This document shows, piece after piece, positions 14,004-36,045 of a stretch of 40,622 bases of DNA; the stretch's first letter is position 1; each line of letters begins with the position of its first letter. Location: the IMG/VR virus record IMGVR_UViG_2671180275_000009, positions 1 through 40,622 of that record; one strand, given 5' to 3'. Below the pieces are notes generated by a model that saw only the letters and a program-made list of their open reading frames with translations, was not told the DNA's origin and searched no databases. The translations under genes and the position numbers were made by a program. This DNA comes from a virus (lineage: Duplodnaviria; Heunggongvirae; Uroviricota; Caudoviricetes).

Positions 14004-14585
14004 ATGGACAAGCCGACGCGTGGCCGCGTGCGCAAGGTGGATTTGCTCCCCGACAGCATCCGTAAGCCGCTGCTGGAAATGCTGCGTGAAAAACGTCTGA
14101 CGCAGGTCCAGATCCGCGAGGAAATCAACCGTCTGATCCGCGAGGCAGGCCTGCCGGAAGAGCAGCAGCTTTCACCGGCGGCCATCAGCCGAGAAGCCTC
14201 CCGTAATGAGCTGATTGCCCGTAACCTGCGTGATTTACGCGAGCAGACAAAAGCCATGATGGCCGAACTGGGGGACAAGCCGACCGGTGAAACCACTGCA
14301 CTGATTCTGGAAATGTCCCGCGCCCTGATGTACCGCCGCCTGCGTGCCGCGACCGAATCCCTGAACAGCGACAGCGACGTGGATATGCGCCTCATCAAAG
14401 ATATCCTCCTGTCAGCACAGCGTGCGGAAAGTGCCGCCGAGCGCAGCATTAAGCGTGAAAAAGAAATCCGGGCCGCATTTGCTGAAGAGATGGCAAACGC
14501 GGTCACCGACGAACTGCGCGGCGTGGACGGGATGAGTGAACAGCTTGAGTCCCGTATTAAGGGGATTCTGTTGGGTAAAGTCTGA
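14004..14585 (+). CDS. Terminase small subunit-like protein (Mu gp27 position)
   Basis: 193-aa helical/charged ORF immediately upstream of the large terminase. Confidence 0.55.
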   Translation: MDKPTRGRVRKVDLLPDSIRKPLLEMLREKRLTQVQIREEINRLIREAGLPEEQQLSPAAISREASRNELIARNLRDLREQTKAMMAELGDKPTGETTALILEMSRALMYRRLRAATESLNSDSDVDMRLIKDILLSAQRAESAAERSIKREKEIRAAFAEEMANAVTDELRGVDGMSEQLESRIKGILLGKV

Positions 14586-16249
14586 TGAATAACGCCGAAG
14601 AACTCTCCCCCTTACTGACGAATACCGTCTCCACCCGCAAAATTGATCTGGCCGGTGAAAAAGCCCTGCTGGGCGTGGATGTGCCGGACAGCCTTGATTT
14701 GCCCGGTGATATGCCGGTATTTCTGGATTATCAGGCCCGCTGGTTTGAGGATGAAAGCGAGGTCTGCATCGCGGAAAAATCCCGCCGTACCGGGCTTACC
14801 TGGGCGGAAGCCGGGCGTAACGTCATTACCGCTGCAAAACCGAAGCGGCGCGGTGGCCGCAATGTGTTTTATGTGGGGTCAAAGCAGGAGATGGCGCTGG
14901 AATATATTTCTGCCTGCGCCCTGTTCTCCCGTGCCTTTAACCAGCTGGCAGATGCTGATGTGTATGAGCAGACCTTCTGGGATCGGGATAAAAAAGAAGA
15001 AATTCTGACCTACATGATCCGCTTTCCGAACAGTGGATTCAAAATTCAGGCACTGTCTTCCCGTCCGTCAAACCTGCGCGGCCTTCAGGGGGATGTGGTG
15101 ATTGATGAAGCCGCGTTCCACGAGTCACTGGATGAGCTTCTCAAGGCGGCAATGGCGCTTACCATGTGGGGCGCGCGCGTGCGTATTATCTCCACGCATA
15201 ACGGCGTCGATAATCTGTTTAATCAGTACATTCAGGAAGCCCGCGAGGGACGCAAGGATTACAGCGTCCACCGCATAACCCTGGATGATGCCATTGCGGA
15301 CGGGCTGTACCGTCGTATCTGTTATGTCACCGGCCGCGAATGGTCACCGGAAAGCGAGCAGAAGTGGCGTGATGATCTCTACAAAAACGCCCCGACCCGT
15401 GAGGATGCCGACGAGGAATACGGCTGTATCCCGAAAAAATCCGGCGGTGCCTATATTCCTCACGCGCTTATTGAAATGGCGATGATCCGCGACATCCCGA
15501 TTCTGACGTTTGAAGCCCCGGACGACTTCATCAGCCGTGCTGCATGGCTGCGTGAATCGGAGGTTTTAACCTGGTGTGAAGAACATTTAAAACCGCTTTT
15601 AGAGAAATTAAATCCCCGTTCCCGCTTCAGCTTCGGGGAAGACTTTGCCCGCACCGGTGACCTGTCCTGCTTTGTGCTGCTGGAAATCACCGAATCCCTG
15701 GCAAAACGCGAGGTGTTTCGCGTGGAGCTGCGTAACCTGCCGTATGCCCAGCAGGAGCAGGTGATGATGTACATCCTGACCCGCGTTCCGGCACTGACTG
15801 GCGCGGCGTTCGATGCCACCGGTAACGGCGGCTATCTGGCCGAAGCCGCGCTGCTGGCCTTTGGTCCGGACATCATCGACTGCGTGATGTTATCGCCGAA
15901 GTGGTACGGCGAGTGGATGCCAAAACTGAAGGCCGAGTTTGAAGATCAGAATATCCTCGTCGCCCGTCATCAGACCACGCTTGATGATTTGCGCCATGTG
16001 AAGGTGGTGAACGGTATCCCGCAAATCGACAAGGGGCGTACGAAGGACCAGAACGCAACGGCTGTGAACGCCCGCCGCCATGGTGATTTTGCCGTGGCGC
16101 TCTGTATGGCAAACCGGGCGTCATACATGGAGGGCTTCATCCTGGATGAATCAGCCTGTCAGGCGCTGCCGGAGCGGTCGCGGGCCATGGAGGGCGGTTA
16201 TCGTGATGACGATGAGGCATATCATAAATTTGATCGGGGGTGCTGGTAG
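14585..16249 (+). CDS. Terminase large subunit
   Basis: 554-aa ORF in the Mu gp28 position with ATPase then nuclease-type layout. Confidence 0.75.
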   Translation: MNNAEELSPLLTNTVSTRKIDLAGEKALLGVDVPDSLDLPGDMPVFLDYQARWFEDESEVCIAEKSRRTGLTWAEAGRNVITAAKPKRRGGRNVFYVGSKQEMALEYISACALFSRAFNQLADADVYEQTFWDRDKKEEILTYMIRFPNSGFKIQALSSRPSNLRGLQGDVVIDEAAFHESLDELLKAAMALTMWGARVRIISTHNGVDNLFNQYIQEAREGRKDYSVHRITLDDAIADGLYRRICYVTGREWSPESEQKWRDDLYKNAPTREDADEEYGCIPKKSGGAYIPHALIEMAMIRDIPILTFEAPDDFISRAAWLRESEVLTWCEEHLKPLLEKLNPRSRFSFGEDFARTGDLSCFVLLEITESLAKREVFRVELRNLPYAQQEQVMMYILTRVPALTGAAFDATGNGGYLAEAALLAFGPDIIDCVMLSPKWYGEWMPKLKAEFEDQNILVARHQTTLDDLRHVKVVNGIPQIDKGRTKDQNATAVNARRHGDFAVALCMANRASYMEGFILDESACQALPERSRAMEGGYRDDDEAYHKFDRGCW

Positions 16250-23385: not shown

Positions 23386-23664
23386 ATGAAAACCATCTTT
23401 ATCAAACCCGCGCCGGGACGCCTGATTCGTGATCCCGACACAATGCGCCCGCTGGCACAGGAGGGGGAGGAAAAAACCTTCACGCCGTTCTGGTGTCGGC
23501 GTCTTGATGACGGCGATGTCATTCAGCCTGGAAGCCTGCCGGAAAGTGAAGCTCCCGCCGTGACGGAAGAAAACAGTGATAACGACATGGCGATGAATGC
23601 CGACCCGGTTATGGACAGTGACACGGTATCCGGCCCCGCAGTCTCAGATGAGGAAACGCTCTGA
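23386..23664 (+). CDS. Mu gp38-like small acidic protein
   Basis: 92-aa ORF before the sheath gene. Confidence 0.45.
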   Translation: MKTIFIKPAPGRLIRDPDTMRPLAQEGEEKTFTPFWCRRLDDGDVIQPGSLPESEAPAVTEENSDNDMAMNADPVMDSDTVSGPAVSDEETL

Positions 23665-25166
23665 TGATCAGTTTTAATCAGATTGGGGATGATAACCGCA
23701 TCCCGCTTGTACAGATTGAATTTGATAATTCCATGGCCGTCACCGGCACCCCGGCGCAACGTCAGTCTGTGTTGCTGTTCGGGCAGGCTGCCATGAAAGA
23801 CACCGCCGTACAGGGTTCCGGTCAACTGGACATTCCTGTACGTATTACCCGTGCATCTCAGGCAAGAGAGCTTTGGGGGCGTGGTTCCATGATTGCGCTG
23901 ATGGTGGCGGAATTCATCGCCATTAATCCCGACACAGAGTTATATGCCATTGCCCAGGGGGCGGGCACTGGTCAGCCGCAGGCGTGTGTGATGAATATCA
24001 TTGGTACGGCGACGGCAGACGGTGTGTTATGCGTCTATATTGGTGGTCGCCGTTATCTGCTGGCTGTCGGTACAGGGCAAAAAGGTAAAGCGCTTGTGGA
24101 AGCACTTGTGAAGGTCATTAACGCCGATGTTGATGCACCATTCACGGCTTATGCAGCAGAAGTCAGTGGAGATAATGCTGAAGGCCTTAAAGGCAGTATG
24201 GGGGTGAATGCCCGTTTTACCGGTGAGTGCTCAGTTCATGATTTACGTGTGAACTATTACGACGGTGAAACCACCCCTTCCGGCCTTACATTGCAGATAA
24301 CATCTCCAAAACAGAAGGCCACAAACCCGGATATCACCCGCAGCGTGGCGGGGATGGGGGATCGTCAGTACAACTACATCGTCATGCCCTATAAGGATGA
24401 CGCAAACCTGAAGGTGATCAGCGATGAACTGCTGAAACGCTGGGGACCGGTCAAAATGTCCGATGGAGTCATCTGGATGGCTCACACGGGCACATTCGGA
24501 GAAGTACAGGCGTTCGGTGAAAAACGTAACGATTTTCTTGCTACCTGTACGGCTATTCCAAAAGCACCGGAACCCGATTATCTGTGGGCAGCCTCGGTGT
24601 GTGCGACATGCGCACCGTCATTATCTTCGGATCCGGCACGTCCACTTCAGACACTGGCCATCACGCCCCGACTGGCACCCGCCGCAGCGGATCGTCTGAC
24701 CCGTGAAGAGCGAAACAGCCTGCTGTGGAGCGGTATCGCTACAGTAACCGTCGCAACCGGTGATGTGGTGCAAATCGAACGTCAGGTGACGATGTATCGT
24801 CAGAACGCCTATGGAGACAATGACCCCAGCTATCTGGATGTGGAAACCGTCTACACCCTTTCATATCTGCGTTACTCCCTGCGAACGTTCATCACGCAGC
24901 GTTTTCCGCGCCATAAGCTGGCGGATAATGGCACACCGGTGAGCGCGGGACAGAATATTGTAACCCCGGAAATCATGACGCTTCAGTTGATTGCTCTGGG
25001 TGAGGAATGGGTCGATCAGGGGTTGGTCGAGAACCTGGACACTTTTAAAAAGAATCTGCTCGTGGAGCGTAACACATCAGATCGCAACCGCCTTGATGTG
25101 TTGTGCACACCGGACCTGGTTAACCAGTTCCGCTTTATGGCCGCGCAGATCCGTTTCATTTTGTGA
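23664..25166 (+). CDS. Contractile tail sheath protein
   Basis: 500-aa ORF followed by a ~120-aa tube gene, the standard myovirus arrangement. Confidence 0.8.
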   Translation: MISFNQIGDDNRIPLVQIEFDNSMAVTGTPAQRQSVLLFGQAAMKDTAVQGSGQLDIPVRITRASQARELWGRGSMIALMVAEFIAINPDTELYAIAQGAGTGQPQACVMNIIGTATADGVLCVYIGGRRYLLAVGTGQKGKALVEALVKVINADVDAPFTAYAAEVSGDNAEGLKGSMGVNARFTGECSVHDLRVNYYDGETTPSGLTLQITSPKQKATNPDITRSVAGMGDRQYNYIVMPYKDDANLKVISDELLKRWGPVKMSDGVIWMAHTGTFGEVQAFGEKRNDFLATCTAIPKAPEPDYLWAASVCATCAPSLSSDPARPLQTLAITPRLAPAAADRLTREERNSLLWSGIATVTVATGDVVQIERQVTMYRQNAYGDNDPSYLDVETVYTLSYLRYSLRTFITQRFPRHKLADNGTPVSAGQNIVTPEIMTLQLIALGEEWVDQGLVENLDTFKKNLLVERNTSDRNRLDVLCTPDLVNQFRFMAAQIRFIL

Positions 25167-25174
25167 GGTAATTC

Positions 25175-25540
25175 ATGAGCGGAAAACAGTATCAGGGGAC
25201 CGCAACCATCCGTGTGAACGGTCAGGAGTTTGCCACGCTGGAAGGCGCAACCTTCTCGCCATCCGGTTTTGAACGTGAAGCCGTGAAAGGCGCAAAGGTC
25301 TACGGTTACCGGGAGAAACCCCGTGAGGCCACGCTGGAATGCAAATTTCCGGCCGGTGGTGAAGGCTCGCCGGCAACGGATGAAATCAACAGCTGGAACG
25401 CAGTCACAATTGAATTCGTCGCCGATACCGGTGAAGTCCATATGATGACCAAAGCCTGGAGTGTGGAGCCCGCGTCTTTAGATGGTGGTGGCGATATCTC
25501 TGCGAAGTTCGCCAGCGCAACCAGTACCCGTGTTCAGTAA
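25175..25540 (+). CDS. Tail tube protein
   Basis: 121-aa ORF directly after the sheath gene. Confidence 0.75.
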   Translation: MSGKQYQGTATIRVNGQEFATLEGATFSPSGFEREAVKGAKVYGYREKPREATLECKFPAGGEGSPATDEINSWNAVTIEFVADTGEVHMMTKAWSVEPASLDGGGDISAKFASATSTRVQ

Positions 25541-25549
25541 GGAGCAGTT

Positions 25550-26026
25550 ATGGCATCACGTAAGAAAAAAACAGCGGTTTCAGACGAAGGCGTCATGGAG
25601 GCCATTCGTGAAGCGCTTGAAGGAGGCGATCCGCGCACCGCCGGTCTGACTGAACAACTGGCTAATGGGTATGTGGATCTGCTGGATGGTCTGCCCTGCG
25701 GTGAAAGCCGTGAATACCGTGTCACATTCCGGGAACTGACCGCGAAAGACAGCATTGATGCTGAATCAGAAGCCGAGAAAGTGATGGATACACGTAACGG
25801 TCCGATGCTGATTGCGTCTCCCTCTCTACGGGGGATTGCACTTCTGCGCCGTCAGATTGCCGCTGTCGGTGAGATTCAGGGACCGTTATCCCTCCGCCAG
25901 GTTGGGCAGTTGAGTGAACGTGACCTGTCCCGTCTGATGGCGGCGGTCGGCATTCTGGATACAGCCATGGCCGGAAAGCTGGCGGCTGACCGGGGGCGAG
26001 CAGGCGCAGTGTCGGGCGCAGATTGA
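25550..26026 (+). CDS. Tail assembly chaperone candidate (possibly extended by frameshift to ~26149)
   Basis: 158-aa ORF before the tape measure gene; an overlapping frame is open from ~25941 to stop at 26147-26149. Confidence 0.5.
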   Translation: MASRKKKTAVSDEGVMEAIREALEGGDPRTAGLTEQLANGYVDLLDGLPCGESREYRVTFRELTAKDSIDAESEAEKVMDTRNGPMLIASPSLRGIALLRRQIAAVGEIQGPLSLRQVGQLSERDLSRLMAAVGILDTAMAGKLAADRGRAGAVSGAD

Positions 26027-26153
26027 AGAAGCGGCGATAGTACTGGGGATGGTGACGAAAAGCGGCCCGGAATGGGCGCTTAACCTCCCCTTATCGCAAC
26101 TTTACCGGCACTGCCAACAAACGGAAAAAATCCTTAAAGCGAAGCAGTAAACG

Positions 26154-28220
26154 ATGGCAAAAAATCTGAAAGCCTCCCTGATAGTCGATCTGCTCGGCAA
26201 TATTTCCGCTAAATCTCGCCAGTGGTCGCAGGAGCTGGGGACATTTTCCCGTTCCGGACAGTCGGGGCTGGGTGGTCTGGGTAATGCAGCCCGTCGTGCC
26301 GGTCAGGAAACTGATCTTGTTGGCACCCGTATGCAACGTATGCTTGCCGGAGTCCGTGGCAGTATCCGTTCAGTCACCTCTGATTTTGACCGGCTTCAGG
26401 GAAGTATTACCGGTACGCTGGGACGTATCAGCAACCTTTACGGGATGCTGGCCGGTGGTGCGGCTGCGTACGGATTTAACAAGGCTTTTCTTCGTCCCGC
26501 ATCAGAGATGGAGAATTACATTCTTCGTCTCAATGCCATCAATCATGGTGATACATCCAGAACAGAAGACGTCCGTAAGTGGGCTGTCCAGAATGCAAAA
26601 GAAACCACGTGGGGGCTGGCCGGCGTTATGCAGGAATACGCTTCCAGCCGTGGTTTTGGTATGAGTGATAAGGAAGCACGTAACTTTATCACCATGCTTC
26701 AGGATCAGGGGGGCTATCACGGCTGGTCCCTTGCTGACGCGCAGGGCGCATCCCTTCAGCTCAAACAGATGTATTCCCGTGGTGCAATTCAGGCGGCTGA
26801 TGCCAGTATTCTGACGGGCTACGGTATCAACGTTTATCAGTTGCTGGCTGAAAAACTGAAAGTTGATCAGAAAGTACTTCGTGATCTGGGTGGCAAAGGT
26901 AAGCTGGGACCGGACAGTATTCGTCTCCTGTTCCAGGTCATGGCAGAACAGGCAAAAGGTGCACAGAAAAATGCCATGAACTCCTGGACGGGCATGACTG
27001 CCATGATGGGGGATGTATGGGATGACTTTGCCCGTGACGTCATGGCCAAAGGACCTTTTGACAGCCTTAAAAACAGCCTTAAAGGCTTTCTGGATTATGC
27101 TGATGAGGCAAAGTCCAGCAGTCTTCAGGAAAAACTGGCGGCACAGACAGCGGGTGCCCTGAATCAGGGCTTTGAGTATGCCCGTGATGCGGCAACTGGT
27201 TTTTACCGGGCTATTCAGAAGGTACGGGAAACGCTTCAGGCGCTGCGTGATGCAGGGTATGGCGATACGCTGGACGGTATCGCTCGTGGTGCACAGACAG
27301 CTGCGAAATATCTGCTGTATATGTATCTGGCCACCCGGACACTGAAACTGGTCAGGGCTGTTGGTGGAAGTGCGCTGCGTCTTGGTGCAACACCGCTTCG
27401 CTGGGGCATGTCCACCGCTTCTGTTCTGACCTCCCCCTTCCGCAAACCACAGACCACCGTTCCCGAAACCATACCGGGGCGTGGCGGTCGGTTCCTGAAT
27501 TTTCTGACGGGGGTTAACCCCGCAGCCATTCAGCCCGTAAATGTCATGAACTGGCCAGCCGGTGCCATGGCGGGGGGCGTTTCTGATGTGATCAGCGGAG
27601 GTGAAGGAAAACGTCAGCGTGGACGCACCAGACGCGGGCCGGGGCGCGGACGCCCGGTGACGTCGGTTGTTACTGTACCGGCAACGCCGCCAGCCTCACC
27701 CCCTCAGGGCTTCTTCGGGCGCATGATGAGCCGTGCCGGTGGCTTGCTTTCATCCGCCGGTAACCGGCTGGGTATGGGGCGTTTCTCCGGCCTTTTCCGC
27801 CGTGCCGGTGGGGTTGCCGGTCGTTTGGGCGGTGGAGCCCTTTGGGCCGGGGCGATGGCCGCCCCTGTCCTGCTGGACGATAGTGCCAGTGCTACCAACA
27901 AGGGGGAGGCTGTCGGCTCTCTTGCTGGCAGCATTGCCGGTGGAGCGCTGGGAGCTGCGGCAGGACCTGTCGGCGTGGCTATCGGTTCAACGGTGGGAAG
28001 TTATCTCGGTAATTATCTCGGCGGCTGGCTGACAGAAGCCTGGCAAAAACTACGGGGGGATACCGATAACAGCGGAGGAAAAGCCGCTGAACAGGCTTCT
28101 GCCCGTGTGGAGCTGGTTGCCCCGGATGGCTGGAGCGCAAGAAGTATTGATATCAATGAAACCTCCGGCAGTTCGCTGGATGTGGATGTCTGGAACGGAG
28201 GTAACTATGTCCACTGGTGA
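26154..28220 (+). CDS. Tail tape measure protein
   Basis: 688-aa Ala/Gly-rich ORF with glycine-rich C-terminal region, between chaperone and baseplate genes. Confidence 0.75.
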   Translation: MAKNLKASLIVDLLGNISAKSRQWSQELGTFSRSGQSGLGGLGNAARRAGQETDLVGTRMQRMLAGVRGSIRSVTSDFDRLQGSITGTLGRISNLYGMLAGGAAAYGFNKAFLRPASEMENYILRLNAINHGDTSRTEDVRKWAVQNAKETTWGLAGVMQEYASSRGFGMSDKEARNFITMLQDQGGYHGWSLADAQGASLQLKQMYSRGAIQAADASILTGYGINVYQLLAEKLKVDQKVLRDLGGKGKLGPDSIRLLFQVMAEQAKGAQKNAMNSWTGMTAMMGDVWDDFARDVMAKGPFDSLKNSLKGFLDYADEAKSSSLQEKLAAQTAGALNQGFEYARDAATGFYRAIQKVRETLQALRDAGYGDTLDGIARGAQTAAKYLLYMYLATRTLKLVRAVGGSALRLGATPLRWGMSTASVLTSPFRKPQTTVPETIPGRGGRFLNFLTGVNPAAIQPVNVMNWPAGAMAGGVSDVISGGEGKRQRGRTRRGPGRGRPVTSVVTVPATPPASPPQGFFGRMMSRAGGLLSSAGNRLGMGRFSGLFRRAGGVAGRLGGGALWAGAMAAPVLLDDSASATNKGEAVGSLAGSIAGGALGAAAGPVGVAIGSTVGSYLGNYLGGWLTEAWQKLRGDTDNSGGKAAEQASARVELVAPDGWSARSIDINETSGSSLDVDVWNGGNYVHW

Positions 28221-29622
28221 CGGCAAGGGGTCGTTTCGCGGTGTGCCATTCCTGGTATTTCGCGAACAGCGTGAACGCGGTGGGCGTAATATCGTTCGCC
28301 GGGAATATCCGTTACAGGAACGGGGCGGTGCAGATGATCTGGGGCCAAAACTGCCGGAATACACCTTCACCGTACTGGTGATGGGAGAGGATGTTCACAC
28401 GCAACGAAGCCGTCTTCGGGATGCCCTTCGCGCCCCCGGGCCGGGTGAACTTATGCACCCGGAATATGGCACTTTAAACGTGATGATAAACAGCTTTGAA
28501 AGCCGTTACAGCGCCGATGAACAGCGCATTGTTGAATTCACAATTAATGTGTCTCCGGTCAGTGATGAAACAGCGCCAACGGCCAGCCAGGATACGGCTG
28601 CACTTCTGGAGGCCAGAAGTGGTGCAGCCCTGAACAGCATGTTTGGTACGCTGGCAAGTGGCTGGACCGTCATTTCCGATGGTATGCATGATGTGCAGGC
28701 AATGGCTGAAACCATCAGTGACAAAATTGAGGCGCTGGAAAATTCCGTTTCCGGGATGGGGATTGTGCAGGATATCAGTGCCTTTACGGCCACGTTTACG
28801 GCGCTTAAAGGTAACGTTACCGCATTGCTCACAAGTCCGCAGCGAATGGCGGAATCACTGGCGGGTATGTTTGTCACCCTGACGGCATTACCCACGATCC
28901 CTGCGCTCTCCCTTACCCGGAAGAATACCGGCAGTACCGTAACCGGTGCTTCCGGGGGGAATGGCGGTACGGTTTACACCAGAGGCAGTGGAGGCGAATT
29001 GCCCGCAGGGAGTCTGGATGTGGTGATGCAGAGCACCCTTGAACAGGGACTTCCTCAGCTCTACAGAACCTTATCCTCCCTGCGTTATGCGCTGACAGAA
29101 CAGGATGATCCACAGCGTCTGATTGGGCTTACCCCGCCAGCTCAACAAAATATCCGGCTTCTCAGGGCAGTGATGCAGAGTGCAGCCGTGGTGTCTCAGG
29201 CTCAGACAGTGGGAAAATTGCTGGATCAGGTAATCAGTCTTGAAACAGCCCGGACAAGTAATAACACGAAGTCAGCCGGTCTTGTCTGGCTGGAAAGTGC
29301 CGCAGATGTTGAGCGTATCAACCGTGATTTGAGTGATGCGCTTGAATTACAGGTCATGGATTTGTCTGCGCTGGGGTATACCTCCACAGCCCTGACTCTC
29401 AGGGATGCCCGCCTGGCGTTGACAGAAGATCTTACGGTCAGGGCGGTCTCCCTGCCGGGGGCTGTACAGGTATCCGTCCGGGCGACAGAACCTGCACTGG
29501 TAACCCTGTACCGTGAAACAGGAAACAGCACCCGCTGGCAACATTTTGTGCGTCGTAACAACATTTCAGACCCGCTTTTTGTGCCGGGGGGAAGTACTGT
29601 GGAGGTGATCAGTGAACAGTAA
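28207..29622 (+). CDS. DNA circularisation protein-like (Mu N / gp43 family)
   Basis: ~471-aa ORF starting MSTGDGKGSF; track start 28105 overlaps tape measure and is probably an extension. Confidence 0.6.
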   Translation: MSTGDGKGSFRGVPFLVFREQRERGGRNIVRREYPLQERGGADDLGPKLPEYTFTVLVMGEDVHTQRSRLRDALRAPGPGELMHPEYGTLNVMINSFESRYSADEQRIVEFTINVSPVSDETAPTASQDTAALLEARSGAALNSMFGTLASGWTVISDGMHDVQAMAETISDKIEALENSVSGMGIVQDISAFTATFTALKGNVTALLTSPQRMAESLAGMFVTLTALPTIPALSLTRKNTGSTVTGASGGNGGTVYTRGSGGELPAGSLDVVMQSTLEQGLPQLYRTLSSLRYALTEQDDPQRLIGLTPPAQQNIRLLRAVMQSAAVVSQAQTVGKLLDQVISLETARTSNNTKSAGLVWLESAADVERINRDLSDALELQVMDLSALGYTSTALTLRDARLALTEDLTVRAVSLPGAVQVSVRATEPALVTLYRETGNSTRWQHFVRRNNISDPLFVPGGSTVEVISEQ

Positions 29623-35484: not shown

Positions 35485-36045
35485 ATGCTGATTGGCTATA
35501 TACGCGTATCAACAAATGACCAGAACACAGGTTTACAAAGAAATGCGCTGGAATGTGCAGGATGTGAGCAGATTTTTGAAGACAAAATGAGTGGTAAAAC
35601 GACGCAGCGGCCGGGACTGAAGCGGGCACTGAAGAAACTAAAACCCGGCGACACACTGATGGTCTGGAAACTGGACAGGCTGGGGCGCAGTATGCGCCAC
35701 CTTGTTGCGCTGACAGATGAATTACAGCAACAGGGGATAAATTTTCGTAGTCTTACTGACAACATTGATACGTCAACCCCCATGGGGCGCTTCTTTTTTC
35801 ACATAATGGGTGCGCTGGCAGAAATGGAGCGTGAATTGATTGTCGAACGGACACGGGCTGGTCTTGCTGCTGCCCGTGAAAGGGGACGAACCGGCGGCAG
35901 ACCCCGTCGTCTCACGCAGGAACAATACGAGCAGGTCGGGCGTTTACTGGCCGGGGGTGTCAGCCGAAGACAGGTGGCACTTATTTTTGATATCGGCCTT
36001 TCAACCCTTTATCGTTATTATCCTGCGAGCGTTTCGGAAAAATAA
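35485..36045 (+). CDS. gin: Gin/Hin/Cin-family serine DNA invertase
   Basis: 186-aa ORF starting MLIGYIRVSTNDQNTGLQRNAL (catalytic Ser motif) with C-terminal HTH; adjacent to invertible segment. Confidence 0.85.
   Translation: MLIGYIRVSTNDQNTGLQRNALECAGCEQIFEDKMSGKTTQRPGLKRALKKLKPGDTLMVWKLDRLGRSMRHLVALTDELQQQGINFRSLTDNIDTSTPMGRFFFHIMGALAEMERELIVERTRAGLAAARERGRTGGRPRRLTQEQYEQVGRLLAGGVSRRQVALIFDIGLSTLYRYYPASVSEK

What the first reader, a model, noticed from the sequence alone, without database searches (positions are those of the whole stretch)
25941..26153. Overlapping reading frame between tail chaperone and tape measure gene (candidate programmed frameshift)
The chaperone-position ORF stops at 26026, but a second frame (offset +1, equivalent to -2) is open from about 25941 to a stop at 26147-26149 and fills the otherwise non-coding 127-bp gap before the tape measure gene. 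This layout matches the conserved frameshifted tail assembly chaperone pair of long-tailed phages. The shift direction required here is +1 or -2 rather than the common -1.
Basis: seen in the sequence. Interest (0 to 1): 0.45.

Follow-up and report, generated by a model that had tools for sequence, protein, structure and literature searches.

The report
Mu-type tail chaperone frameshift site
This is the programmed ribosomal frameshift that Mu-like phages use to make a short and a long form of their tail assembly chaperone; it is real and strongly conserved, but it was shown for phage Mu in 2004, so it is an ordinary, merely unannotated, copy.

Summary
A gp41-type tail assembly chaperone gene (25550-26026) is overlapped by a +1 frame that is open from 25938 to a stop at 26148-26150. 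That frame fills the 127-nt gap before the tape measure gene (ATG 26154).

The window is a complete Mu-like prophage of E. coli. The overlap contains CGG_GGG_CGA (25991-25999), the same nonamer in the same codon phase and position as in phage Mu. GenBank and UniProt annotate a -2 frameshift product there for Mu, verified by Xu, Hendrix and Duda (2004).

- **Slip site:** 74 of 85 related loci (gp41 identity 100% down to 37%) keep the nonamer exactly, and all 85 keep GGGGCGA.
- **Codon usage:** GGG and CGA are the only conserved codons of the gene with an invariant third base.
- **Extension:** the roughly 50-residue extension is conserved, with pN/pS 0.33 against 0.90 and 2.08 in the other frames. 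It has no stops and no conserved start codon.

The expected products are a 158-aa chaperone and a minor 200-aa fusion. No stimulatory RNA structure was found.

It is already known, so interest is low. The exact slip model was not resolved here (-2 with P-site slip, -2 tandem, or +1).

The parts
25175..25540 (+). Tail tube gene (Mu gpM homologue), the upstream neighbour that fixes the synteny
   Evidence: Pfam PF10618 Tail_tube, E 2.7e-30. Preceded by the tail sheath gene at 23664-25166 (PF04984/PF17482).
25550..26026 (+). Tail assembly chaperone, zero-frame product ('G', Mu gp41 homologue), 158 aa
   Evidence: ORF. Pfam PF23746 Gp41_Mu, E 6.7e-31. phrog_508 tail assembly chaperone, E 1e-39. 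43% identical to Mu gp41.
25938..26150 (+).
   Evidence: Stop positions per frame.
25991..25999 (+). Slip site CGG_GGG_CGA (zero-frame Arg148-Gly149-Arg150)
   Evidence: Sequence. Identical nonamer, phase and position as in Mu. 74 of 85 loci keep it exactly and 85 of 85 keep GGGGCGA. GGG and CGA are used in 66 of 66 unique gene sequences, against a median major-third-base frequency of 0.65 at other conserved codons.
25995..26150 (+). 'T' segment read after the shift: GGC at 25995-25997 for a -2 P-site slip, GAG at 25998 for +1 or tandem -2. About 50 aa plus stop.
   Evidence: Translation. Homologous to the Mu FS-gp41 C-terminus and to phrog_12783. Conserved in 48 unique relatives. pN/pS 0.33 in this frame against 0.90 and 2.08, with 0 stops against 41 and 46. 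A distant clade gives 0.20 against 0.97 and 3.14.
25550..26150 (+). Predicted frameshift fusion CDS ('GT'). It is join(25550..25996,25995..26150), 200 aa, if the -2 slip follows the UniProt Mu model. It is 200 aa with R in place of G at residue 150 under the GenBank Mu model, and 199 aa if the slip is +1.
   Evidence: Constructed by analogy with Mu P0DJY4 and UIW09302.1. The fusion protein itself has not been observed for this element.
26154..28220 (+). Tape measure protein gene, the downstream neighbour
   Evidence: Pfam PF20155 TMP_3, E 1e-16. RefSeq names the 99.9% identical copy 'tape measure protein'.

Best explanation
This is the G/GT-type tail assembly chaperone pair of a Mu-like prophage, expressed by programmed ribosomal frameshifting.

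Most ribosomes translate 25550-26026 and release a 158-aa gp41-type chaperone. A small fraction change frame at CGG_GGG_CGA (25991-25999) into the +1 frame. They continue to the TAA at 26148-26150, 3 nt before the tape measure ATG, and make a roughly 200-aa fusion with a conserved 50-residue C-terminal 'T' module.

By homology with Mu, the shift is -2. The peptidyl-tRNA-Gly on GGG (25994-25996) slips back two bases onto GGG (25992-25994) while the rare, slowly decoded CGA codon sits in the A site. In the alternative tandem version, the A-site tRNA-Arg also moves, onto GGC.

- **Shown here:** the anatomy, the homology of both parts to Mu, the nucleotide-level conservation of the site, purifying selection on the second frame, and the lack of a conserved start codon or of a conserved RNA structure.
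- **Taken from the literature on Mu and lambda:** the shift is translational and -2 and occurs at a low percentage. The two products act as chaperones for the tape measure protein and recruit the tube subunit, and they are absent from virions.
- **Inferred only:** this particular copy behaves in the same way.
For: - **Synteny and family:** the order is sheath, tube, gp41 (PF23746), tape measure, inside a full Mu-like prophage with MuA, MuB, Mu portal, MuF and gpT capsid.
- **Same layout in Mu:** the Mu chaperone frame ends ...ERGRVAAVPE*, and its +1 frame reads GGEWLRCRNDIEKAA...SGPEWALSLPLSRFFRHCQQ. The window reads GGEQAQCRAQIEEAA...SGPEWALNLPLSQLYRHCQQ.
- **Mu is annotated as verified:** The 188-aa -2 product is UniProt P0DJY4, 'Probable tail assembly protein FS-gp41'; the 187-aa +1 version is not in the collection.
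[quoted passage not shown] The Mu 10-mer alone gave 14% in a cell-free system (bioRxiv 10.1101/2025.10.02.679949).
- **Open frame in relatives:** the +1 frame runs 112-130 nt past the chaperone stop in all but two anomalous loci. The -1 frame closes within 2-35 nt in the enterobacterial relatives and within 86 nt in the most distant ones.
- **Slip-site conservation:** nonamer counts and codon usage.
- **Coding signature of the extension:**
- **No independent start:** no start codon is conserved in the second frame. Two Mu-type representatives have none at all, Mu has one TTG without a Shine-Dalgarno sequence, and the window has only ATG and GTG at codons 18 and 19 without one.
- **Narrow entry point:** in many relatives the second frame opens only 3-6 codons before the nonamer, so the shift can only occur there.
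Against: - No protein data exist for this element.
- RefSeq leaves the fusion unannotated in the 99.9% identical E. coli copy.
- Sequence alone cannot tell -2 from +1, because both reach the same frame.
- No 3' stimulatory structure was found: the fold z-score is +1.05 and no pair shows covariation. Efficiency must therefore rest on the site itself.
- Nine related loci have AAG_GGG_CGA, where a -2 re-pairing would be onto AGG. A strict G5 run is therefore not essential in the whole family.
- The two database versions of the Mu product disagree on the residue at the shift, G or R.
Confidence: 0.9

Rival explanations
1. The same G/GT pair, but here the ribosome shifts +1. The peptidyl-tRNA-Gly moves from GGG (25994-25996) to GGC (25995-25997) and the next codon is GAG at 25998. 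The fusion would be 199 aa and read ...ADRG-EQAQ.
For: +1 and -2 reach the same frame. A slow CGA in the A site is the classical context for +1 P-site slippage (general knowledge). Nine relatives have only G4 (AAG_GGG_CGA), where +1 re-pairing is better than -2. The cell-free reporter work states that it cannot separate -2 from +1.
Against: The Mu site is annotated and reviewed as a verified -2 shift, and the window's nonamer is identical. The wobble base of the preceding codon (position 3 of the nonamer) is G in 85 of 85 loci, and position 2 is G in 76 of 85. These bases lie upstream of anything a +1 slip needs and are not read in the second frame, but they are exactly what a backward re-pairing needs.
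Confidence: 0.07
2. The long product arises from transcriptional slippage: RNA polymerase drops one G or adds two G in the G5 run. Ribosomal frameshifting would not be involved.
For: The site is a homopolymer run. DNA-level one-G deletions of this run occur in database contigs and give in-frame fusions (P0002 and P0100).
Against: Five G is short for productive polymerase slippage, which usually needs longer A or T runs (general knowledge; PMC5009743 covers the topic). The invariant CGA after the run (66 of 66) has no role in polymerase slippage but has an obvious one in decoding. The Mu event is reported as translational.
Confidence: 0.02
3. The second frame is a separate small gene translated from its own start (ATG 26049, 33 aa). 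Some annotations call it that way: D108 gp41.5, and a 48-aa hypothetical protein in E. coli CI5.
For: An ATG exists at 26049. Separate small ORFs are annotated in D108 and in E. coli CI5. PHROGs holds the peptide as its own family, phrog_12783.
Against: No start codon is conserved across lineages, and two Mu-type representatives have none in the whole frame. The window's ATG lacks a Shine-Dalgarno sequence and would drop the conserved CR..IE.AA segment. Amino-acid conservation begins at the nonamer, inside the overlap.
Confidence: 0.01
4. The open frame is a chance feature of a non-coding spacer.
For: Off-frame read-through of 100-116 nt occurs by chance at five other gene ends in this window. 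The nonamer alone is expected 0.52 times per window.
Against: There are no stops in 32 diverged sequences, against 41 and 46 in the other frames. pN/pS is 0.33 (and 0.20 in a distant clade) only in this frame. The peptide is recognisable down to 37% gp41 identity. No promoter, terminator or Rfam element lies in the region.
Confidence: 0.005

Closest known systems
Phage Mu gp41 / FS-gp41 (Mup41 and Mu_56; UniProt P0DJY4; Xu, Hendrix and Duda 2004, PMID 15469818)
   Same: Homologous chaperone (PF23746; 43% identity) and homologous extension (57% identity). Identical CGG_GGG_CGA in the same phase, about 9 codons before the chaperone stop. The same +1/-2 frame relation, and the same position between the tube and tape measure genes.
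   Different: A different Mu-like lineage. The chaperone has a longer N-terminus (158 against 144 aa) and a tail two codons longer after the site. The second frame ends 3 nt before the tape measure ATG, against 14 nt in Mu. No experimental data exist for this copy.
Phage lambda gpG / gpGT
   Same: The logic is the same: a chaperone gene before the tape measure gene, a minor C-terminally extended product made by frameshifting, and a fixed ratio needed for tail assembly. In lambda, G binds the tape measure protein and T binds the major tail protein (PMC5009743). The G and T genes are seen in NC_001416.
   Different: Lambda shifts -1 on G_GGA_AAG (sequence). No detectable sequence similarity to lambda was found here. 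Lambda has a non-contractile tail.
Phage P2 gpE / gpE+E'
   Same: A contractile-tailed phage with overlapping chaperone ORFs just before the tape measure gene T, annotated as a frameshift product. PF10109 (chaperones 'E, or 41 or 14') gives a sub-threshold hit to the window protein (24 bits against a cut-off of 25).
   Different: P2 shifts -1 on T_TTT_TTG. Its extension overlaps the start of the tape measure gene, whereas here it ends before it.
Other -2 programmed frameshifts (arterivirus nsp2TF, Trichomonas vaginalis virus 1)
   Same: The same direction of shift (PMC5009743).
   Different: Those are eukaryotic viral systems with different slip sites and, for arteriviruses, a protein trans-activator (general knowledge). 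They are unrelated genes.

Membership tests
Mu-type gp41 / FS-gp41 tail assembly chaperone pair (-2 frameshift) | The zero-frame product belongs to the Mu gp41 family | tested here: met
   PF23746 Gp41_Mu, 107 bits against a cut-off of 27, full profile length. Aligns with Mu and SfMu gp41.
Mu-type gp41 / FS-gp41 tail assembly chaperone pair (-2 frameshift) | The gene lies between the tail tube gene and the tape measure gene | tested here: met
   Tube 25175-25540, chaperone 25550-26026, tape measure 26154-28220.
Mu-type gp41 / FS-gp41 tail assembly chaperone pair (-2 frameshift) | A second frame, offset +1/-2, overlaps the 3' end of the gene, spans the gap, and is homologous to the Mu extension | tested here: met
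   Frame open 25938-26147. tblastn to Mu, D108 and SfMu gives 57% identity, E 2e-13. phrog_12783, E 4.8e-35.
Mu-type gp41 / FS-gp41 tail assembly chaperone pair (-2 frameshift) | Slip site CGG_GGG_CGA in the overlap, in the same codon phase | tested here: met
   25991-25999. The same nonamer occurs in Mu at L001 2458-2466. Family-wide conservation.
Mu-type gp41 / FS-gp41 tail assembly chaperone pair (-2 frameshift) | The second frame is under protein-coding selection and has no start codon of its own | tested here: met
   pN/pS and stop counts. Start-codon survey.
Mu-type gp41 / FS-gp41 tail assembly chaperone pair (-2 frameshift) | A fusion protein is made, and the shift is -2 rather than +1 | not testable with these tools
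   Known only for Mu, from the AF083977.1 note and the reviews. Conserved G at nonamer positions 2-3 favours a backward slip, but this is indirect.
Tail assembly chaperone G/GT system of long-tailed phages in general | Both products are needed for tail assembly in a set ratio, bind the tape measure and tube proteins, and are absent from virions | not testable with these tools
   Shown for lambda (PMC5009743). Mu gp41 was not resolved in virion cryo-EM (PMC11915804). Nothing was measured for this prophage.
Canonical -1 frameshift sites (X_XXY_YYZ with a 3' structure) | A heptamer that allows tandem -1 slippage into the -1 frame | tested here: not met
   The -1 frame closes 14 nt after the chaperone stop. 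The conserved frame is +1/-2. No 3' structure was found.

The most novel reading that the evidence does not exclude
The family-wide data leave the slip mechanism open. Two database versions of the Mu product imply different -2 models: a P-site-only slip giving ...RG-G-E, and a tandem slip after CGA is decoded giving ...RGR-E. A clade with AAG_GGG_CGA cannot re-pair perfectly after a -2 slip. It is therefore not excluded that this element, or part of the family, uses +1 or a mixture of +1 and -2 at one site. In that case the invariant C at position 7 and the CGA codon would be read out by tRNA-Arg(ICG) re-pairing rather than by a simple pause. This would refine a known recoding site. It would not be a new kind of system.
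Probability: 0.15. Interest if true: 0.35.

Novelty: already known. Interest (0 to 1): 0.12.

Why it matters
The main value is for annotation.
- **RefSeq:** the pipeline leaves the long product unannotated in identical E. coli prophages, or calls a 48-aa 'hypothetical protein'.
- **PHROGs:** the extension is filed as a family of unknown function (phrog_12783).
- **D108:** it is listed as gp41.5.

A simple rule would let these be annotated correctly across Mu-like prophages: a PF23746 gene, then CGG_GGG_CGA (or at least GGGGCGA), then a +1 frame open up to the tape measure gene.

The comparative set assembled here covers 85 loci with gp41 identity from 100% down to 37%. It also shows how strongly one of the few natural -2 sites is conserved at synonymous positions. 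That is useful background for mechanistic work on backward two-base slippage.

Tried and rejected
- **3' stimulatory structure:** folding 25991-26080 gave z = +1.05, and 171 of 200 shuffles fold as well. The consensus fold of 12 diverged relatives had 9 pairs, none with a compensatory change. No structure is supported.
- **Other elements in the region:** Rfam and the promoter/terminator scans over 25400-26400 found nothing.
- **Genome search:** a genome-contig scan with the single protein found nothing. With an alignment it found only 3 loci. The viral-contig scan supplied the comparative set.
- **Structure:** AlphaFold2 of the 200-aa fusion from a 12-row alignment had mean pLDDT 60.5. The chaperone part scored about 70-80 and the extension 35-42, with two helices predicted at low confidence. 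Foldseek against the PDB gave no match with E below 0.6, and sequence search of the PDB gave none. Nothing structural can be said about the extension.
- **NCBIfam:** no model matches either part.
- **Primary paper:** Xu et al. 2004 is not held in the library. Text searches for the slip-site sequence found nothing relevant. The exact experimentally determined shift residue in Mu could therefore not be checked.
- **Independent initiation and chance ORF:** both considered and rejected.

Full report
**Observation.**
The ORF at 25550-26026 (158 aa) ends with TGA at 26024-26026. The tape measure ORF starts at 26154, which leaves 127 nt between them. A scan of stops in each frame shows that the +1 frame has a stop at 25935-25937 and no other until TAA at 26148-26150. 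The stop is one base off, and the frame opens at 25938. The -1 frame closes 14 nt after the chaperone stop.

Taken alone, this layout would not be significant. Five other gene ends in the window have accidental off-frame read-through of 100-116 nt. The nonamer discussed below is expected 0.52 times per window by chance.

**What the genes are.**
The window is a complete Mu-like prophage. It carries a Mu-type repressor-like DNA-binding protein, MuA transposase, MuB, a Mu portal, MuF, the gpT capsid protein, a gpN-like protein, gpP and a Gin-type invertase. Around the finding the order is as follows:
- tail sheath (PF04984/PF17482)
- tail tube (PF10618, E 2.7e-30)
- the 158-aa protein (PF23746, 'Tail assembly protein gp41', E 6.7e-31)
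- tape measure protein (PF20155)

The DNA is 99.9% identical to a prophage in E. coli DETEC-S792. There RefSeq annotates only 'phage tail assembly protein' and 'tape measure protein', with nothing in the gap.

**Comparison with Mu.**
Mu has the same arrangement: Mup41 at 23552-23986 and Mup42 from 24131. Its chaperone frame ends ...TQERGRVAAVPE*. Its +1 frame reads ...GGEWLRCRNDIEKAATAIGVILKSGPEWALSLPLSRFFRHCQQAKTLSQYHR*. The window reads ...GGEQAQCRAQIEEAAIVLGMVTKSGPEWALNLPLSQLYRHCQQTEKILKAKQ*.

By tblastn the window's extension is 57% identical to the same place in Mu, D108, SfMu and Yersinia Mu-like phages (E 2e-13). It also matches phrog_12783 over its full length (E 4.8e-35).

The nucleotides at the junction are the same. 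Mu has GAA CGG GGG CGA GTG and the window has GAC CGG GGG CGA GCA, at 25991-25999.

The current GenBank Mu record annotates a joined CDS, Mu_56, at 23552-24116. Its note reads 'verified -2 translational frameshift in PMID 15469818; tail assembly chaperone frameshift product'. My reconstruction of the Mu -2 product (188 aa) is exactly UniProt P0DJY4, 'Probable tail assembly protein FS-gp41'. The +1 version (187 aa) is not in the collection.

The literature held in the library agrees:
- PMC5009743 lists phage Mu among the users of -2 frameshifting.
- PMC2628397 and PMC4378225 repeat the point.
- A 2025 preprint measured 14% for the Mu 10-mer alone in a purified translation system.

I collected 85 related loci. 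They come from IMG/VR, GTDB genomes, RefSeq E. coli and phage records, with gp41 identity from 100% down to 37%.

- **Open frame.** In all but two anomalous loci the +1 frame runs 112-130 nt past the chaperone stop. The -1 frame closes within 2-35 nt in the enterobacterial relatives, and within 86 nt in the most distant ones.
- **Slip site.** The nonamer is CGGGGGCGA in 74 loci, AAGGGGCGA in 9, GGGGGGCGA in 1 and AGGGGGCGA in 1, always in the same codon phase. The flanking codons vary freely.
- **Codon usage.** In a codon alignment of 66 unique gp41 sequences, 21 columns hold a conserved amino acid with four-fold or six-fold degenerate codons. Only Gly149 (GGG, 66 of 66) and Arg150 (CGA, 66 of 66) have an invariant third base. 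The median frequency of the commonest third base in these columns is 0.65, and Gly and Arg elsewhere mostly use GGC and CGT/CGC.
- **The extension as a protein.** It aligns as a peptide of about 50 residues, with a recognisable LPL(S/R)xL(F/Y)R motif even in the most distant clade.
- **Selection downstream of the chaperone stop.** Pooled pairwise pN/pS is 0.33 in the extension frame, against 0.90 and 2.08 in the other two frames. There are 0 stops against 41 and 46 in 32 sequences. A distant clade gives 0.20 against 0.97 and 3.14.
- **Start codons.** No start codon is conserved in the extension frame. Two Mu-type representatives have none, Mu has a single TTG without a Shine-Dalgarno sequence, and the window has ATG and GTG only at codons 18 and 19.
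- **Entry point.** In many lineages the frame opens only 3-6 codons before the nonamer.

The extension is therefore a translated protein segment that can only be reached by changing frame at the nonamer.

**Mechanism.**
The zero-frame codons are CGG (25991-25993), GGG (25994-25996) and CGA (25997-25999). Three models are possible.
- **-2, P-site slip.** With GGG in the P site, tRNA-Gly can move back two bases onto GGG (25992-25994) with perfect pairing. The next codon is GGC, and the product reads ...ADRG-G-EQAQCR (200 aa). This is the UniProt model for Mu.
- **-2, tandem slip.** The GenBank Mu product has R instead of G at that position. This corresponds to a slip after CGA has been decoded, with tRNA-Arg re-pairing on GGC.
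- **+1 slip.** A move from GGG to GGC would give 199 aa.

Sequence cannot separate these. However, G is invariant at nonamer position 3 (85 of 85 loci) and near-invariant at position 2 (76 of 85). These bases lie upstream of anything a +1 slip needs and are not read in the second frame. That pattern fits a backward slip (inference).

CGA is a rare, slowly decoded Arg codon in E. coli (general knowledge), which fits a pause with an empty or slow A site. No 3' stimulator is supported. This agrees with the report that the bare 10-mer is active.

The function of the two products is inferred from lambda. There, the G part binds the tape measure protein and the T part binds the tail tube subunit, and both leave the finished tail (PMC5009743). 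Consistent with this, gp41 was not resolved in the Mu virion structure (PMC11915804).

**Rivals.**
A +1 slip, polymerase slippage, independent initiation and chance are dealt with in the rival list. Together I give them about 0.1.

**Structure attempts.**
These were uninformative for the extension: pLDDT was 35-42, and neither fold search nor sequence search of the PDB found a match.

**Verdict.**
This is a real, strongly conserved recoding site and a correct reading by the first stage. It is the published Mu gp41/FS-gp41 -2 frameshift in another Mu-like prophage. Novelty is 'already known': this copy is simply unannotated. Interest is low.

Noticed in passing
L001 2458-2466 (Mu NC_000929) and L088 (AF083977.1 23552-24116): The two public versions of the Mu frameshift product differ at the shift residue. 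UniProt P0DJY4 reads ...QERGGEWLR and GenBank UIW09302.1 reads ...QERGREWLR. Both are 188 aa. They imply different -2 models: a P-site-only slip, or a slip after CGA is decoded.
   Followed up: partly
L006 1930-1938 (Citrobacter braakii ATCC 51113); also L029-L031, L033-L036 and L038: A clade of nine loci has AAG_GGG_CGA (only four G) in place of CGG_GGG_CGA, with zero-frame Lys instead of Arg. A -2 re-pairing would be onto AGG, so these may shift +1 or with lower efficiency.
   Followed up: no
L090 (E. coli GCA_900449035.1, around 916-927) and L091 (Logan SRR12298524, around 474-485): Database proteins P0002 and P0100 are in-frame chaperone-extension fusions because their contigs carry CGGGGCGA, a one-G deletion in the run. 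These are either homopolymer sequencing errors or natural fusion-only mutants. L090 also has other broken ORFs nearby, which suggests sequencing errors.
   Followed up: partly
window 26027-26153; L004, L005, L089: Annotation of the extension is inconsistent. RefSeq leaves it blank in the 99.9% identical E. coli copy and calls a 48-aa hypothetical protein in strain CI5. D108 lists it as gp41.5. PHROGs has it as phrog_12783, 'unknown function'.
   Followed up: yes
window 35485-36045: A Gin/resolvase-type serine invertase (PF00239, E 1.4e-51) lies downstream of the tail fibre region. This suggests an invertible host-range segment like the Mu G segment. Inverted repeats were not searched.
   Followed up: no
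window 28105-29622: The mechanical ORF for the gpN-like protein (PF07157) starts at a GTG that overlaps the tape measure gene by 116 nt. The real start is probably an internal codon near the tape measure stop at 28220, as in Mu, where gene 43 starts 4 nt after gene 42.
   Followed up: no
L008 (Apirhabdus apintestini CP138906.1) and L045 (IMGVR_UViG_2758568005_000002): In these two loci the gp41 reading frame does not continue from the start of the match to the expected stop. In L008 the C-terminal part ...ERGRVAAVSE* sits in another frame. This may reflect an indel, a pseudogene or a segmented tblastn match. Both loci were left out of the statistics.
   Followed up: no
window 14585-16249: The 554-aa ORF in the position of the terminase large subunit has no Pfam match at E <= 0.001.
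   Followed up: no
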